A stretch of DNA of 64,000 nucleotides from a bacterium (GTDB lineage: Bacteria > Sysuimicrobiota > Sysuimicrobiia > Sysuimicrobiales > Humicultoraceae). The position numbers were made by a program, and so were the translations under genes. Below are positions 52,087-58,297 of this stretch, one piece after another; the stretch's first letter is position 1; each line of letters opens with the position of its first letter. The stretch spans positions 199,127 to 263,126 of the forward strand of contig JAVHLI010000001.1 in the NCBI GenBank assembly GCA_031082185.1. The letters are read 5' to 3'. The notes under the pieces were generated by a model. It made no database searches, was not told the DNA's origin, and saw nothing but the letters and a program-made list of their open reading frames with translations.

Positions 52087-53088
52087 GTGGCGCGCGTGAT
52101 TCGGCGGCAACTTGGCCGGGGCGGGTTTGAGGTCTCGGCGTTCGGGCTCGGCTGCATGAGCATGTCGGGAAGTTACGGGTACGGCGTGGGTGACGAGGCC
52201 GAGTCGATCGCCACGATTCACCGGGCCTACGAGCTTGGGGTTGCGTTCTTCGACACGGCGGACGCCTACGGTAACGGGCACAACGAGACGTTGCTGGGGC
52301 AGGCCGTCCGTCCGTTCCGGCGTGAGATCGTTATCGCCACCAAGTTCGGCCACGTGCCCGCCAGAGAAGGCCGGCCCGCGGGCATAAGTGGCAAGCCCGA
52401 TTACGTGAGGGAAGCGTGCGCGGAGAGCCTGCAGCGACTGGGGGTCGATGTCATCGACCTCTACTACCAGCATCGCGTCGATCCCGATACGCCCATCGAG
52501 GATACGGTGGGTGCGATGGTCGGGCTGGTCGAAGCCGGCAAGGTGAAATACCTGGGCCTCTCGGAGGCGTCGGCTGCCACCATCCGGCGCGGGCACGCCA
52601 TTCATCCCATCACCGCGGTTCAGTCGGAATACTCGCTATGGACTCGAGATCCCGAACGCGAGGTCTTGAAGACCTGCCGCGAGTTGGGGATTGGCTTCGT
52701 GCCCTACAGCCCGCTCGGCCGGGGCTTCCTCACCGGTACGGTGCAGTCGCCCGACGACCTGGCGGCAGACGACCGGCGGCGCATTCATCCACGTTTCCAT
52801 CCAGAGAACTTCAGCAGCAATCTCCGGCTGGTCGACCGCCTGCGCGCCATGGCGGAGGCGAAGGGCTGTTCGCTGCCCCAACTGGTGATCGCTTGGGTGC
52901 TGGCGCAGGGCGACGATATCGTGCCCATCCCCGGTGCCCGGCGCCGCGCGCACCTGGAGGAAAACCTGGGCGCCCTGAGTGTCACGCTGACGAAGGACGA
53001 TCTGGCCGCGCTGGACGAAATCGCGCCGATCGGTGTCGCAGCCGGCGCCCGCTATCCGGCGGATGGGATGCGGGCTATCAACCGCTAG
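52087..53088 (+). CDS. aldo/keto reductase
   Basis: ..[22 protein letters not shown]......[24 protein letters not shown].....[10 protein letters not shown]. Confidence 0.8.
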
Positions 53089-53192
53089 ATCCTGCAGCCC
53101 GCAGCGCACCCCGGCACGCGCGCCATGCGCAGTAGCCGGTGGGGGAGACACCCAGGGCGCGGCTCATCCTGGTCACTCGGTCAGGGATGGTC

Positions 53193-55325
53193 TCAGGCCA
53201 GGTTGAAGCGGCGGTGGAGCGCCCCGACCGCATCCTCCGCCCTGTCCCTGGAGATGACGCAGGAGATGCGCAGCGGGGAAGTGCTGATCATGTCAATGTT
53301 GATTCCTTCATCTGCCAGGGCCTCGAACATGGAAGCGGCGACCCCCGCATCCTGCGAGATGCCGGCTCCCACCACGGACACCTTGGCGATCCCCGCATCC
53401 TCAGCAACACGGCGGGCGCCCAACTCAGCCGCCAGATCACGGCATACGCGGCGGGCGTCATCCAGGTGTTCCCTGACCACGGTGAAGGCGATGTCGTTCC
53501 GTCCTTCCCGATGCATGCCCTGCAGGATCATGTCCACCTTCACCCCGGCGTTTGCCAGGGCCCGGAACACCCGGGCCGCCATACCCGGCACGTCGGGCAC
53601 GGCCTCCAACACCAGCTTGATCTCGTCGCAGCTGTGGGTGACCGCTCTAATGATGACTTCCTCCATCTCGTTTCCTCCTCCCACCTGCGTGCCCGGATCG
53701 TCGCTGAAGCTGGACCGAACCACCAGCTCTACTCCGAACCGCTTGGCGACTTCCACTGCGCGCGGCTGAATGACTCGGGTTCCCAGGTCGGCCATCTCCA
53801 GCATCTCGTCGTAGGAGATCCGACGAATGAGCCTGGCCTGGGGGATCACCCGCGGATCGGCCGTGTAGACCCCATCGACATCGGTATGGATCTCGCATCG
53901 GTCCGCCCGAAGGGCTGCGGCCACGGCGACGGCGGTGGTGTCCGACCCACCCCGACCCAGCGTGGTTACATCACCGCCGGCCTCCCGGCCCTGGAAGCCG
54001 GCCACCACCACGACCCTGCCGGTCCTGAGGTGGTTCATGATCTTCTCCCGGTCGATCCGGCGGATGCGGGCCCGACGGTGTGCGCGATCGGTGATGATCC
54101 CAACCTGGGACCCGGTCAGGGAGACGGCTTCCACCCCCTGACGGCTGAGCGCCATGGACAGAAGGGCGATGGAAACCTGCTCGCCGGTGGAGAGGAGCAT
54201 GTCCATCTCCCGAGGCGGCGGCTCAGGGTTGATGGAATTGGCCAGGGCGATCAACTCGTCGGTGGCACCTCCCATGGCCGACACTACCACCACGACATCG
54301 TCACCGGCCCTGCGGGCCTGTGCTACACGGTCGGCCACCTTCCTGATGCGATCTGCATCGGCCACCGAGGTGCCCCCGTACTTCTGGACAACCAGGGAGC
54401 GCACAGGGCGGTCGGTCGTGGAGACCTCGGCGCCGAACAGATCGGCCATTACCACCTGTGTGTCCGTCTTGACGCCGGCGCGGGAGAAGGCGGCCTGCAT
54501 GGCATCGGCCACTTCCGCTTCCACGCGCTCGGGGACGAAGGCCAGCAGGGAGGGTCCGGAGCCGCTTAGGGCCACTCCTGCCGCGCCGGCTGCATGGGCC
54601 GCGGCAATGGCTTCAGCCATACCCGGGATGAGCTCTGCCCGGTAGTTCTGGTGCAGCCGGTCGTCCATTGCAATTGCCAGGTGAGCGTGCTCGCCGCTGG
54701 AGATCCCGGCCATGAACAACGCCACCCGGCCTATGTTGAAGACCGCGTCGTCAAGGGGCACCACCGAAGGTAGGACCTGGCGGGCAAAGGCCGTGGGAAC
54801 CTGGAAGTCCGGTACCACGACGAGGATGTTCAGGCCAAACGACGGGTTGATGCGGACATGCTCCACACGCCCCGCGTGGGGGACAGAAACCACCAACCCG
54901 CCCAGGAAGGCAGGGACCACGTTGTCCGGGTGGCCCTCGCGCTCCACGGCCATCACCATCAGTTGCTCGCGATCGTACGGCCCACCGATGAGATGGTTGG
55001 CTGCCAGCAGCCCACCGACGATGGCGGCGGCGCTGGACCCCAACCCCCGGCCGAGGGGGATGCGGTTGAGGCAATGCACCCGCAGTCCGGGTGGACTCGA
55101 TCCGGCGCGGTCGAAGACCATGTTCATGGCCTGGACCACCAGGTTGGAGCCATCACGGGGTAGCGTATCCGCGCCTTCACCCTCTACCGTAACCACCAGG
55201 CCTTCGGGGATGACCACGGTCTCGATCTCGTTGTAGAGTTCCAGGGCTAATCCCAGGACGTCAAAGCCCGATCCCAGGTTGGCGCTGGTTGCCGGCACGG
55301 TCACCCTGACGCGCATTGCCTTCAC
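53193..55325 (-). CDS. in-frame fusion ORF: homoserine kinase (GHMP) N-terminal ~310 aa + aspartate kinase with two ACT domains (C-terminal ~400 aa)
   Basis: N-terminus VTVPATSANLGSGFDVLGLA....GRGLGSSAAAIVGGLLAANHL....LSGSGPSLLAF. No stop, then VVQKYGGTSVADADRIRKVADRV....VVVVSAMGGATDEL....GRGGSDTTAV, then ACT repeats. Confidence 0.6.
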   Translation of the reverse strand: MKAMRVRVTVPATSANLGSGFDVLGLALELYNEIETVVIPEGLVVTVEGEGADTLPRDGSNLVVQAMNMVFDRAGSSPPGLRVHCLNRIPLGRGLGSSAAAIVGGLLAANHLIGGPYDREQLMVMAVEREGHPDNVVPAFLGGLVVSVPHAGRVEHVRINPSFGLNILVVVPDFQVPTAFARQVLPSVVPLDDAVFNIGRVALFMAGISSGEHAHLAIAMDDRLHQNYRAELIPGMAEAIAAAHAAGAAGVALSGSGPSLLAFVPERVEAEVADAMQAAFSRAGVKTDTQVVMADLFGAEVSTTDRPVRSLVVQKYGGTSVADADRIRKVADRVAQARRAGDDVVVVVSAMGGATDELIALANSINPEPPPREMDMLLSTGEQVSIALLSMALSRQGVEAVSLTGSQVGIITDRAHRRARIRRIDREKIMNHLRTGRVVVVAGFQGREAGGDVTTLGRGGSDTTAVAVAAALRADRCEIHTDVDGVYTADPRVIPQARLIRRISYDEMLEMADLGTRVIQPRAVEVAKRFGVELVVRSSFSDDPGTQVGGGNEMEEVIIRAVTHSCDEIKLVLEAVPDVPGMAARVFRALANAGVKVDMILQGMHREGRNDIAFTVVREHLDDARRVCRDLAAELGARRVAEDAGIAKVSVVGAGISQDAGVAASMFEALADEGINIDMISTSPLRISCVISRDRAEDAVGALHRRFNLA

Positions 55326-55393
55326 CCTCCAACGCTCACACGGAGTTCGGCTGCGGGTTTGCGCAGGACTCTACCACCTTGTGCGGGGGGCGG

Positions 55394-55716
55394 TCAAATG
55401 TTTGAGTCGAGTTGGGCCACCAGCCGGACGAACTCCCGGATCGGGGCGAGCTGATGCATCGCGGCAAGCACCAGGCGGTAATCCAATCCTACATATTCAT
55501 GGACTACGACGTTCCGAAAGCCAGGGAGTCGCACCAGGACCTCGACGACCTCAGAGGGGAAGCCATCTGCGCGATCATCAACAGCGAGAACAGCACGTCG
55601 TTTCGGAGCGAGAGGTTGCTTTCGAGATCCTGCGGGGTCACAACCTCGTCCCTGCGGGCCTCAAGGTGATCGAGGTACCGCTGGATCTCGCTCAGCCTCT
55701 CGGTAAGGAACGTCAT
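55394..55716 (-). pseudogene. hepT: HepT (DUF86) toxin gene with a 1-nt frameshift
   Basis: Frame A: MTFLTERLSEIQRYLDHLEARRDEVVTPQDLESNLSLRNDVLFSLLMIAQ.. Frame B resumes: ..DGFPSEVVEVLVRLPGFRNVVVHEYVGLDYRLV..LDSNI*, which carries the R-x4-HxY motif. Confidence 0.6.
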
Positions 55717-56135
55717 CGGCTCAGCCGCTCGAGCTGCGCCTGCCGCGCCCGCCGGAGGAATGGAATGAGGTCCGCGGCGCGCAGTAAGGTATCGCGCTCG
55801 AACTCGCGCGCCCGCTCCGGGTCGGTGACGTGCACGCGGACCCCTTCGCGAAGGATCTTCGCGGCAAACGGCGCCGGGATCTCGTTGAGGATGACGACGT
55901 CCACGTCGTTCTCCCCGAGGGCGTGAATGAGGTCGCCGATGAGCCGCAGGCGGATCTCGAAGCGGGCCGCGGCGGCGAGGTGGGCGGCCGGATCAAGCAC
56001 CACCCCCACGTCCACGTCGCTCTCAGGCACATCTCTTTCCAGTGCGCGGCTGCCAAACAGGTACGCTGCAAGGACGCCATCAGGGGCCCGATGGCGGAAG
56101 TATTGTTCCAGTTTCTCGCGGAGATCGGGAGTCAT
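55713..56135 (-). CDS. mntA: MntA nucleotidyltransferase antitoxin
   Basis: AYLFGSRALERDVPESDVDVGVVL. Confidence 0.65.
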   Translation of the reverse strand: MTPDLREKLEQYFRHRAPDGVLAAYLFGSRALERDVPESDVDVGVVLDPAAHLAAAARFEIRLRLIGDLIHALGENDVDVVILNEIPAPFAAKILREGVRVHVTDPERAREFERDTLLRAADLIPFLRRARQAQLERLSR

Positions 56136-56174
56136 AAGAATCGGCCGCCCACATCACGATACCACACGCCCGTC

Positions 56175-56540
56175 TCAGCCATCGGCCTTCTTGTTGCTGA
56201 CCTCTGCCAGGACGTTCACGATCGCTGCCTTGAATCCCGGGAGATCCTCACGGATCGTCTGCCACACAACTTCGAGGTTCACTCCGAAATAGTCGTGGAT
56301 CAGCTTGTCGCGCAGTCCGGCAGCCGCCTGCCACGGCACATCGGGGTGCCGTTTCCGGACGGAGGCGGGAACCTTCTTGGCGGCTTCGCCCACCAGTTCA
56401 AGCGCCCGGATTACGGCATAGACCGTCTTCTCGTCTGCCGAGAAGGAGGCGAGGTTCATGCCTTCGGTGAATCGATCGGCCTTTTCGGCGGCGTCCAGGA
56501 TGTCGCGCAGGTAGTCAGCAATGGCGCGCTTTCTAGTCAA
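56175..56540 (-). CDS. hepT: HepT (DUF86) toxin
   Basis: ..GLRDKLIHDYFGVNLEVVW.. (R-x4-HxY). Confidence 0.65.
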   Translation of the reverse strand: MTRKRAIADYLRDILDAAEKADRFTEGMNLASFSADEKTVYAVIRALELVGEAAKKVPASVRKRHPDVPWQAAAGLRDKLIHDYFGVNLEVVWQTIREDLPGFKAAIVNVLAEVSNKKADG

Positions 56541-56875
56541 ACCTGGACGACCTCGTCAAGAATTCTCTTGCCGACGGTTGGTTTCAGGGCGTCCTTCATT
56601 ACCAGGTCTACCTTCACGCCGAGCAGGCGGCTGATCTCGTGTTCGAGTTCGATGAACTTGAAGAGACCAAGTGGACGGTTGAAGTCCACGAGCACGTCCA
56701 GATCGCTGCCCCGCCTCTGTTCGCCGCGGACGTAGGAACCGAACACCCCCAAGGATCTCACCCTGTAGAGATGTCTCAACATCGGTAGGTGCCGCCGCAG
56801 GATGCGGACGTACTGAGCCGTCGATCCTGGCAGAGTGACGACTCCACTTCGGCGCGTTCGACTAGACCGGTTCAT
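56537..56875 (-). CDS. mntA: MntA nucleotidyltransferase antitoxin
   Basis: LGVFGSYVRGEQRRGSDLDVLVDF. Confidence 0.65.
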   Translation of the reverse strand: MNRSSRTRRSGVVTLPGSTAQYVRILRRHLPMLRHLYRVRSLGVFGSYVRGEQRRGSDLDVLVDFNRPLGLFKFIELEHEISRLLGVKVDLVMKDALKPTVGKRILDEVVQV

Positions 56876-58113: not shown

Positions 58114-58297
58114 GGTTAGGCCGTTTCGCAGCGGATGCGCCAACCTCCTTCCGGATTCCGGGGCTTGCCAACGGAGGACGCACGCAGTATCCTCGAATCA
58201 ACTGAATACGGATCACACCTCCGAACGGGCAAACCCGGAGCAATCCGGGGACGCAAAGCCGCAGGGCCACGGCAGTGGCCGGCTGGGTTGCCGAAGA

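What the first reader, a model, noticed from the sequence alone, without database searches (positions are those of the whole stretch)
53193..55325. Single 710-codon ORF fusing homoserine kinase (ThrB) to a complete aspartokinase with two ACT domains
ThrB motifs (PATSANLGSGFDVLG, GRGLGSSAAA, GSGPSLLAF) run without any stop codon into a canonical monofunctional aspartokinase (VVQKYGGTSV..., VVVVSAMGGATDEL, two ACT repeats). Aspartokinase-homoserine dehydrogenase fusions are well known. A ThrB-AK fusion linking the first and fourth steps of the threonine branch would be unusual. The alternative is an unusual internal translation start (GTG before RSLVVQKYGG), with ThrB terminated by suppression, or a sequencing error.
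Basis: seen in the sequence. Interest (0 to 1): 0.5.

Follow-up and report, generated by a model that had tools for sequence, protein, structure and literature searches.

The report
Real homoserine kinase–aspartokinase fusion gene
One gene really does join two enzymes of threonine synthesis (homoserine kinase and aspartokinase) into a single protein; the fusion is conserved but rare in uncultured bacteria, appears undescribed in the literature, and is labelled only "aspartate kinase" in GenBank.

Summary
The 710-codon ORF (53193-55325, minus strand) exists as described. It holds a complete ThrB (residues 6-302) and a complete aspartokinase with two ACT domains (310-709), joined by about 7 residues. 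It is not a sequencing artefact. About 56 protein clusters (90% identity level, down to 44% identity to the query) have the same architecture, and I confirmed uninterrupted ORFs in DNA from nine independent contigs. Catalytic motifs of both halves are nearly invariant, and dN/dS is 0.14-0.18 in each part. No start codon or ribosome-binding site is conserved at the junction. In contrast, a strong GGGAGGAGG-7 nt-ATG sits at residue 554, which aligns with residue 1 of the β-subunits of solved α2β2 aspartokinases. The gene therefore probably yields a 74.7-kDa ThrB-AKα and a 16.8-kDa AKβ. Related lineages carry thrB, a stop, then the AK gene as neighbours in hom/thrC/asd operons, so the fusion arose in place, probably twice (Atribacterota and a Bacillota-like group). 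It is rare: about 4 of the 50%-identity representatives. GenBank already holds this exact gene (MDQ7839646.1, 707 aa) named only "aspartate kinase". I found no paper describing the architecture. Verdict: a new partner for bifunctional aspartokinases, of moderate interest.

The parts
53193..55325 (-). Complete open reading frame as listed mechanically (GTG start, 710 codons plus stop)
53193..55316 (-). Probable true coding sequence: ATG start, 707 aa, 74.7 kDa, ThrB-AK(alpha) fusion; identical to GenBank MDQ7839646.1, which is named 'aspartate kinase'
   Evidence: relatives such as P0011 start at the residue aligned with M4
55368..55397 (-). Sigma-70-like promoter match, TTGACC-18 nt-TAGAGT with an extended -10 TG. 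A consensus match only.
   Evidence: 1 found; 0.4 expected in shuffles
55326..55330 (-). Shine-Dalgarno GGAGG, 9 nt upstream of the ATG at 55316
   Evidence: read from the sequence
54420..55316 (-). Homoserine kinase (ThrB, GHMP kinase) domain, residues 4-302, with motifs PATSANLGSGFD, PLGRGLGSSAAA and GSGPS
54399..54419 (-). Inter-domain linker, residues 303-309 (TTDRPVR). No stop, no conserved start, no SD; AlphaFold confidence dips here.
53667..54398 (-). Aspartokinase catalytic (amino-acid kinase) domain, residues 310-553, with motifs KYGGTS, VVSAMG, GRGGSD and TDVDGVYTADPR
53674..53682 (-). Internal Shine-Dalgarno GGGAGGAGG (made of three rare GGA Gly codons), 7 nt upstream of ATG-554
   Evidence: -13.5 kcal/mol; GGA is 15% of Gly codons; chance of three in a row about 0.003
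53193..53666 (-). Regulatory region with two ACT domains, residues 554-710. It is also the predicted in-frame beta-subunit ORF (157 aa, 16.8 kDa) starting at ATG 53666.
   Evidence: M554 aligns with residue 1 of beta chains 3ab4_B, 2dtj_A, 5yei_D; aligns with CgAK V250

Best explanation
This is a genuine bifunctional gene of the aspartate-to-threonine pathway. From the ATG at 55316 it encodes one 707-aa polypeptide. An active homoserine kinase (step 4: homoserine to O-phosphohomoserine) is joined by a short flexible linker to the N-terminus of the alpha chain of an alpha-beta-type, ACT-regulated aspartokinase (step 1: aspartate to aspartyl phosphate). A second ribosome entry at the internal GGGAGGAGG-ATG (residue 554) most likely also yields the 157-aa aspartokinase beta-subunit, as in C. 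glutamicum, T. thermophilus and P. aeruginosa enzymes. The assembled enzyme would then be an alpha2beta2 aspartokinase core carrying two ThrB domains. The fusion arose in place by loss of the thrB stop codon and the short spacer in an ancestral hom/thrC-thrB-AK-asd operon. Its likely benefit is fixed 1:1 co-expression and co-localisation of the pathway's entry kinase with the kinase that commits homoserine to threonine, both under feedback by threonine (possibly with lysine). This follows the same logic as ThrA (aspartokinase-homoserine dehydrogenase). Shown here: the ORF, both complete domains, conservation, purifying selection, the precursor arrangement, and the sequence signals for the beta start. 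Inferred: both enzyme activities, beta-subunit expression, the quaternary structure, the effector identity, and the selective advantage.
For: An uninterrupted ORF with two complete domains above curated cutoffs. About 56 clusters, 92% down to 44% identical, share the architecture. I verified uninterrupted ORFs in DNA from L001, L002 and L082-L087. Catalytic motifs of both halves are nearly invariant in 57 sequences. dN/dS against L001 is 0.145 (ThrB), 0.179 (AK catalytic) and 0.136 (ACT) at dS about 0.3. The junction has a variable linker, no conserved start (mostly xPIIVQKYGG) and a weak SD in the window (-1.4 kcal/mol). Beta start: SD of -13.5 kcal/mol, ATG-554 aligned with residue 1 of solved beta chains and with CgAK V250, a start-compatible residue conserved across the family, and an SD in other fusion loci of -8.5 to -11.8 kcal/mol. 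[quoted passage not shown] The AlphaFold model has pLDDT 87 and pTM 0.78 with a dip at the linker; its halves match solved aspartokinases (TMt 0.76-0.84) and homoserine kinases (TMt 0.82-0.88). Context: hom-thrB::AK-asd in L085/L086 and thrC-thrB::AK in L002 and L087, with unfused counterparts hom-thrB|AK-asd (L003) and hom-thrC-thrB|AK (L005, L053). Regulatory-site residues of CgAK (D274, G277, A279, Q298, N374, I375) are invariant in the family (mutation list in PMC10464499).
Against: There are no protein-level data for any member. The organisms are uncultured, known only from metagenome-assembled genomes, and read-level data could not be inspected. In the window and in L001 the gene stands alone, with no hom, thrC or asd within 64 kb, so local context adds nothing in this lineage. 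Steps 1 and 4 are not consecutive, so substrate channelling cannot explain the fusion. Whether an N-terminal ThrB is sterically compatible with the alpha2beta2 assembly was not modelled. Some fusion loci have moderately SD-like purine runs near the junction (L083 -9.4, L087 -8.5 kcal/mol), although no start codon follows them.
Confidence: 0.82

Rival explanations
1. Sequencing or assembly artefact: two adjacent genes, thrB and an aspartokinase gene, falsely joined because a stop codon or frameshift was missed at the junction.
For: Adjacent but separate thrB and AK genes do exist in other lineages, sometimes in the same frame and separated by only a few codons (L004, L005, L003). A single base error could therefore mimic a fusion. 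The source is a metagenome-assembled genome.
Against: The same uninterrupted junction is present in L001 (91% identical, an independent assembly) and in about 56 clusters from many samples and assemblers. Within the window's own clade the linker differs in sequence (STTDRPV, STTDRPS, SSVDRPQ, SSLGQDK, SPVGQAR) yet always stays in frame without a stop. No SD or start codon remains at the junction, whereas the truly unfused loci keep both.
Confidence: 0.02
2. It is a single ORF, but the two enzymes act as separate proteins. Either the aspartokinase alpha chain is also or mainly made from an internal start near the junction (for example GTG-308), or the short linker is cut by a protease after translation.
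For: A GTG codon sits at residue 308, just before RSLVVQKYGG. The aspartokinase family already uses internal initiation for its beta-subunit. The linker is predicted to be flexible (pLDDT 66). NCBI's pipeline called an AK-only 419-aa product from an internal start in L001.
Against: Codon 308 is S, Q, K or R in the closest relatives, and most family members have xP before IIVQKYGG, so there is no start codon. The SD duplex energy at the window junction is -1.4 kcal/mol, against -13.5 at the beta start. ThrB alone cannot be released without proteolysis because there is no stop. If separate proteins were favoured, selection would not have kept the frame open across lineages that differ by more than 50%.
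Confidence: 0.08
3. Only one half is an enzyme. The other is a degenerate domain reused as a sensor, for example a ThrB-like domain that binds homoserine or threonine to regulate the aspartokinase.
For: Neither activity has been measured. Fused domains often become regulatory modules. In the window's lineage the gene is no longer in a threonine operon.
Against: GHMP motifs I, II and III and the aspartokinase KYGG, SAMG, GRGGSD and TDVDG motifs are invariant or nearly so in 57 sequences. Both halves score above the curated equivalog cutoffs. dN/dS is equally low in both halves. No second thrB or AK was seen next to any fusion locus, and in the hom-thrB::AK-asd operon (L085/L086) the fusion supplies the only steps 1 and 4.
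Confidence: 0.06

Closest known systems
Alpha2beta2-type 'monofunctional' aspartokinase LysC (Corynebacterium glutamicum 3AAW/3AB4; Pseudomonas aeruginosa 5YEI; Thermus thermophilus; Bacillus subtilis AKII)
   Same: Residues 310-709 align end to end at 44-54% identity and share the fold. There are two ACT domains. An in-frame internal start lies exactly at the position of the known beta-subunit start (CgAK V250, equivalent to M554). Regulatory-site residues are conserved.
   Different: The alpha chain carries a complete 300-residue homoserine kinase on its N-terminus, so it is not monofunctional. No solved or described member has this extension.
Bifunctional aspartokinase-homoserine dehydrogenase (E. 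coli ThrA and MetL; plant AK-HSDH)
   Same: The logic is the same: the pathway's first kinase is fused to a downstream enzyme of the threonine/methionine branch, with ACT-type regulatory domains.
   Different: The partner is homoserine dehydrogenase (step 3), not homoserine kinase (step 4). In ThrA the aspartokinase is N-terminal, whereas here it is C-terminal. ThrA-type profiles score far below cutoff (NF006959: 260 bits against 726), and there is no Homoserine_dh domain.
Bifunctional aspartokinase/diaminopimelate decarboxylase (NCBIfam NF006515; I recall it from Xanthomonas-type LysC-LysA, from memory)
   Same: An aspartokinase is fused to a non-adjacent, branch-specific enzyme (first and last step of lysine synthesis), which is another first-step-plus-branch-enzyme fusion.
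   Different: The partner, the branch and the domain order all differ. The profile scores 160 bits against a cutoff of 802.
Stand-alone homoserine kinase ThrB (M. jannaschii 1FWK, C. glutamicum 5WAT, M. tuberculosis 6CYZ)
   Same: Residues 4-302 match full length, with the same GHMP motifs and fold (TMt 0.82-0.88, rmsd 2.4-3.4 A).
   Different: The C-terminus continues without a stop into an aspartokinase.
Unfused thrB-AK gene pairs in hom/thrC/asd operons (L003 Atribacteria UBA6251; L005 Thermacetogeniaceae; L004 Clostridia; L051, L053, L058, L077 Chloroflexota-type MAGs)
   Same: Same gene order and same operon partners. L003's AK is the well-supported sister (100% bootstrap) of the Atribacterota fusion AKs.
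   Different: There is a real stop after thrB, a spacer of 7-110 nt, and a separate SD and start codon for the AK gene.

Membership tests
Homoserine kinase ThrB (TIGR00191, GHMP kinase superfamily) | Full-length match to the equivalog profile above its curated cutoff | tested here: met
   260.1 bits against cutoff 168.25; residues 6-302 against profile 1-302/304
Homoserine kinase ThrB (TIGR00191, GHMP kinase superfamily) | GHMP motifs I (PAxxANLGxGFD), II (PxGxGLGSSAA, the phosphate-binding loop) and III (GSGP) | tested here: met
   All three are present, and invariant or nearly so in 57 fusion sequences
Homoserine kinase ThrB (TIGR00191, GHMP kinase superfamily) | GHMP-kinase fold like solved ThrB structures | tested here: met
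   The AlphaFold model matches 1fwk, 5wat, 6cyz, 4p52 and 4rpf at TMt 0.82-0.88, rmsd 2.4-3.4 A
Homoserine kinase ThrB (TIGR00191, GHMP kinase superfamily) | ATP-dependent phosphorylation of L-homoserine | not testable with these tools
   Needs an enzyme assay or thrB complementation
Aspartokinase, monofunctional class, alpha-beta type (TIGR00656 / NF005155) | Full-length match above the curated cutoff | tested here: met
   TIGR00656: 437.7 bits against 402.25. NF005155: 559.4 against 346. NF005154: 510.5 against 376. Residues 310-709
Aspartokinase, monofunctional class, alpha-beta type (TIGR00656 / NF005155) | Amino-acid-kinase catalytic motifs (KYGG, SAMG, GRGGSD, TDVDG) and two C-terminal ACT domains | tested here: met
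Aspartokinase, monofunctional class, alpha-beta type (TIGR00656 / NF005155) | In-frame internal start that yields a beta-subunit equal to the C-terminal ACT region | tested here: met
   This is sequence-level evidence only. GGGAGGAGG-7 nt-ATG at residue 554; aligned with residue 1 of beta chains 3ab4_B, 2dtj_A and 5yei_D and with CgAK V250; a start-compatible residue is conserved. Expression was not tested.
Aspartokinase, monofunctional class, alpha-beta type (TIGR00656 / NF005155) | Monofunctional: no other catalytic domain on the polypeptide | tested here: not met
   A complete ThrB domain precedes it in the same ORF. The protein therefore works like this class but is a bifunctional variant of it.
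Bifunctional aspartokinase/homoserine dehydrogenase (ThrA/MetL; NF006959, NF007003) | N-terminal aspartokinase followed by a homoserine dehydrogenase domain; profile above cutoff | tested here: not met
   260.5 bits against 726 and 152.4 against 582. There is no PF00742 or PF03447 hit
Bifunctional aspartokinase/diaminopimelate decarboxylase (NF006515) | Aspartokinase fused to a PLP-dependent decarboxylase; profile above cutoff | tested here: not met
   160.1 bits against 802

The most novel reading that the evidence does not exclude
The fusion may be more than a co-expression device. The ThrB domains could be physically coupled to the ACT regulatory core, so that one threonine (or threonine plus lysine) sensor switches off both the entry step and the branch-committing step. 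Alternatively, dimerising ThrB domains could link alpha2beta2 cores into a higher-order assembly, possibly one that docks Asd and Hom. Either would be a new allosteric architecture for the aspartate pathway. One ORF would then deliver three functional products: ThrB, AK-alpha and AK-beta.
Probability: 0.2. Interest if true: 0.6.

Novelty: new variant of a known kind. Interest (0 to 1): 0.4.

Why it matters
Bifunctional aspartokinases are textbook examples of how branched amino-acid pathways are controlled, and this adds a third partner, homoserine kinase, alongside homoserine dehydrogenase and diaminopimelate decarboxylase. The fusion has a practical consequence for annotation. Pipelines label it only "aspartate kinase", or cut it to an AK-only product as in GCA_016869025.1. 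Pathway reconstructions for these uncultured lineages (Atribacterota, Bacillota-like MAGs) will then wrongly report thrB as missing and may predict threonine auxotrophy. Both fused and unfused states exist in otherwise identical operons, which makes a clean natural experiment on what a fusion buys the cell. The retained internal beta-subunit start makes it a compact case of one ORF encoding two enzymes plus a regulatory subunit. The effect on understanding is incremental, not transformative.

Tried and rejected
1. I first counted L003, L004 and L005 as fusions because tblastn gave a single HSP across both domains. Translating them showed in-frame stops followed by an SD and a start codon, so they are unfused neighbours. 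My first reading that L004 was a second, independent Clostridia fusion was therefore withdrawn.
2. P0009, a 419-aa AK-only protein 90% identical to the query, looked like a split ortholog. Its contig holds the intact 711-codon fused ORF, so the short call is an annotation artefact.
3. I looked for a riboswitch, T-box or other leader upstream. Rfam at gathering threshold over the whole window, and at E<=1 over 55250-55750, found nothing relevant. No intrinsic terminator was found either.
4. I looked for other pathway genes or second AK/ThrB copies in the window by tblastn with hom, asd, thrC, ThrB and AK queries. There were none.
5. Five full-text literature searches, using several phrasings for a ThrB-AK fusion, gave no relevant hit. 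The CgAK structure paper PMC2930746 is not held, so effector-site residues came only from a review's mutation table. I make no firm Thr versus Lys call.
The window's own lineage was not recovered there.
7. The long plus-strand ORFs that overlap the gene (for example 53139-54569, 476 aa) are antisense shadows typical of 65% GC DNA, and I did not pursue them.
Full report
OBSERVATION. The ORF is real and lies on the minus strand, 53193..55325, 710 codons with a GTG start. Pfam finds GHMP_kinases_N and _C (residues 61-143 and 215-281), AA_kinase (311-537) and two ACT domains. NCBIfam shows a full-length homoserine kinase (TIGR00191, residues 6-302 against profile 1-302/304, 260 bits, cutoff 168). 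It also shows a full-length monofunctional-class aspartokinase (TIGR00656, residues 310-709, 438 bits, cutoff 402; NF005155, 559 bits, cutoff 346). Only about seven residues (303-309, window 54399-54419) separate the two domains, and there is no stop.

The likely true start is the ATG at 55316 (residue 4). GGAGG at 55326-55330 touches the GTG but lies 9 nt before this ATG. GenBank protein MDQ7839646.1 (707 aa, "MAG: aspartate kinase [bacterium]") equals window residues 4-710 exactly. The window's Mfd protein is MDQ7839644.1 on the same 451-kb contig. So the window comes from that MAG, and the deposited annotation names only one of the two activities.

IS IT AN ARTEFACT? No. A search of 5.8 billion proteins returned 56 clusters of 705-823 aa with both GHMP and AA_kinase/ACT domains, at 92% down to 44% identity. 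The one apparent split ortholog, P0009 (419 aa, AK only, 90% identity), is an annotation artefact. Its contig L001 (GCA_016869025.1) has an intact 711-codon fused ORF that is 91% identical over residues 1-710, in the same nadE-fusion-mfd synteny. Uninterrupted fused ORFs were confirmed in DNA for L001, L002 and L082-L087.

In an alignment of the 57 sequences, the linker is short and fast-evolving but always in frame. It is 6-8 residues in most members and 25-60 low-complexity residues in eight clusters. No Met or Val is conserved before the aspartokinase domain; most members read xPIIVQKYGG. Its upstream region pairs with the anti-SD at only -1.4 kcal/mol.

ARE BOTH HALVES FUNCTIONAL? The ThrB motifs (PATxANLGxGFD, P..RGLGSSAA, GSGP) and the aspartokinase motifs (KYGG, VVSAMG, LGRGGSD, TDVDGV.TADP) are invariant or nearly so. 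Nei-Gojobori dN/dS between the window and L001 is 0.145 for ThrB, 0.179 for the AK catalytic domain and 0.136 for the ACT region, at dS about 0.3. An AlphaFold2 model built on 33 family members has mean pLDDT 87.2 and pTM 0.78, with a dip to 66 at residues 301-310. By Foldseek its aspartokinase half matches P. aeruginosa and C. glutamicum aspartokinases (TMt 0.76-0.84). Its ThrB half matches solved homoserine kinases (TMt 0.82-0.88, rmsd 2.4-3.4 A). No PDB chain covers both halves (TMq at most 0.49) (sequence search).

A SECOND PRODUCT. [quoted passage not shown] The fusion keeps this feature. GGGAGGAGG (53674-53682) lies 7 nt before ATG-554 (53666), with a duplex energy of -13.5 kcal/mol. M554 aligns with residue 1 of the beta chains 3ab4_B, 2dtj_A and 5yei_D and with V250 of C. 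glutamicum LysC. The SD is built from three consecutive GGA glycine codons. GGA makes up only 15% of Gly codons in the four genes examined, so the chance of three in a row is about 0.003. The position holds M in most family members and V or L in a few, and other fusion loci have an SD there of -8.5 to -11.8 kcal/mol. The predicted products are 74.7 kDa (ThrB-AK-alpha) and 16.8 kDa (AK-beta). Expression itself is inferred.

ORIGIN. Each has a real stop, a 7-110 nt spacer, and its own SD and start. These are L003 (Atribacteria UBA6251), L004 (Clostridia), L005 (Thermacetogeniaceae), and L051, L053, L058 and L077 (Chloroflexota-type).

Operon context gives matched before-and-after pairs:
- hom-thrB|AK-asd in L003 against hom-thrB::AK-asd in L085/L086.
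- hom-thrC-thrB|AK in L005 and L053 against thrC-thrB::AK in L002 and L087.

So the fusion arose in place by loss of the stop codon and the spacer. Neighbour-joining trees of the AK domain, with 200 bootstraps, give these supports:
- Atribacterota fusions as a clade: 100%.
- That clade with the unfused L003 as its sister: 100%.
- The remaining fusions (Bacillota-labelled MAGs, the window's lineage, and the long-linker group) as a clade: 89%.
- All fusions plus L003 together: only 60%.

This points to two independent fusions, or one fusion followed by a fission in L003. Source names place the large 713-720 aa group in Atribacterota/Caldatribacteriota. The window's lineage is labelled "bacterium" or "Armatimonadetes" and its taxonomy remains uncertain.

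RARITY AND PRIOR KNOWLEDGE. In an exhaustive HMMER scan of 1.84 billion 50%-identity representatives, only about four full-length fusion representatives appear (P0011, P0029, P0047, P0057), against 6,667 hits at E<=1e-30. No NCBIfam model exists for this architecture: the best full-length models are plain aspartokinase or plain ThrB. Five full-text searches found no description of it, and a 2026 survey of amino-acid biosynthesis gaps does not mention it. That library lacks most subscription journals, so "undescribed" is provisional.

MECHANISM. Shown: one ORF, two intact catalytic domains, a conserved regulatory region, and an internal SD plus start. Inferred from established knowledge of the families: the protein phosphorylates aspartate (step 1) and homoserine (step 4). 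The ACT pairs of the alpha and beta chains form the effector sites. Residues equivalent to CgAK D274, G277, A279, Q298, N374 and I375 are invariant in the family, and Q298, A279 and I375 are among the CgAK positions listed in a review's table of feedback-deregulating mutations (PMC10464499). Feedback control by threonine, with or without lysine, is therefore likely. I cannot assign the effector with confidence, because positions equivalent to CgAK T311, T361 and E382 differ (A613, A663, P684). Steps 1 and 4 are not consecutive, so the benefit is probably stoichiometric co-expression and co-regulation, as in ThrA, and not channelling.

LOCAL CONTEXT. In this window the gene stands alone. It has a sigma-70-like promoter match at 55368-55397, no leader RNA, and no other pathway gene within 64 kb. 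Compared with L001, an aldo/keto reductase and two MNT/HepT toxin-antitoxin modules have been inserted on either side of it.

VERDICT. The thing is a conserved, rare and under-annotated ThrB-aspartokinase fusion that also keeps the aspartokinase beta-subunit start. It is a new variant of the known class of bifunctional aspartokinases and is of moderate interest.

Noticed in passing
window 58219-58296 (+): An Rfam match to the c-di-GMP-I-GGC riboswitch aptamer (RF03167), 60.2 bits, just above the gathering score of 59. It was the only Rfam hit in the 64-kb window.
   Followed up: no
window 55504-56875 (-): Two nucleotidyltransferase/HEPN-type toxin-antitoxin modules lie between the fusion gene and nadE. 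One is MNT 56537-56875 plus HepT 56175-56540. The other is MNT 55713-56135 plus a 70-aa ORF at 55504-55716 with no Pfam hit. The syntenic locus L001 lacks them, so they look like insertions.
   Followed up: partly
window 52087-53088 (+): An aldo/keto reductase gene, convergent with the fusion gene, sits between it and mfd. It is absent at the same place in L001, where the fusion is followed directly by mfd.
   Followed up: partly
P0154 (723 aa) and P0182 (824 aa): These proteins have homoserine dehydrogenase (NAD_binding_3 plus Homoserine_dh) at the N-terminus and an aspartokinase with ACT domains at the C-terminus. That is the reverse domain order of classic ThrA/MetL.
   Followed up: partly
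L083 7072-7875 and L084 3121-3924: In the Atribacterota lineage carrying P0017 (seen on 27 contigs), the hom gene upstream of the fusion is called as three small ORFs (90, 48 and 116 aa; only a weak NAD_binding_3 hit). The related L085/L086 has an intact 436-aa hom. This may be a pseudogene or recurrent frameshifts.
   Followed up: no
L001 4001-5260 (GCA_016869025.1, VGFA01000021.1): The deposited annotation calls only a 419-aa aspartate kinase from an internal start and leaves 958 nt upstream without a gene. The intact fused ORF is L001:3125-5260. Any pathway reconstruction for that genome would therefore report thrB as missing.
   Followed up: yes
P0124 and P0126 (158 aa; members of the P0001 cluster): Independent gene callers (JGI, Logan) produced 158-aa 'aspartate kinase' proteins that begin exactly at MEEVVIRAV, the predicted beta-subunit start. 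I did not check whether the upstream sequence on those contigs is truncated or broken.
   Followed up: no
P0014, P0025, P0039, P0043, P0047, P0055, P0056, P0057 (alignment): A subgroup of fusions has long (25-60 aa) Pro/Ala/Gly/Asp-rich low-complexity linkers in place of the usual 6-8 residues. P0056 and P0057 also have N-terminal extensions (800-823 aa in total).
   Followed up: no
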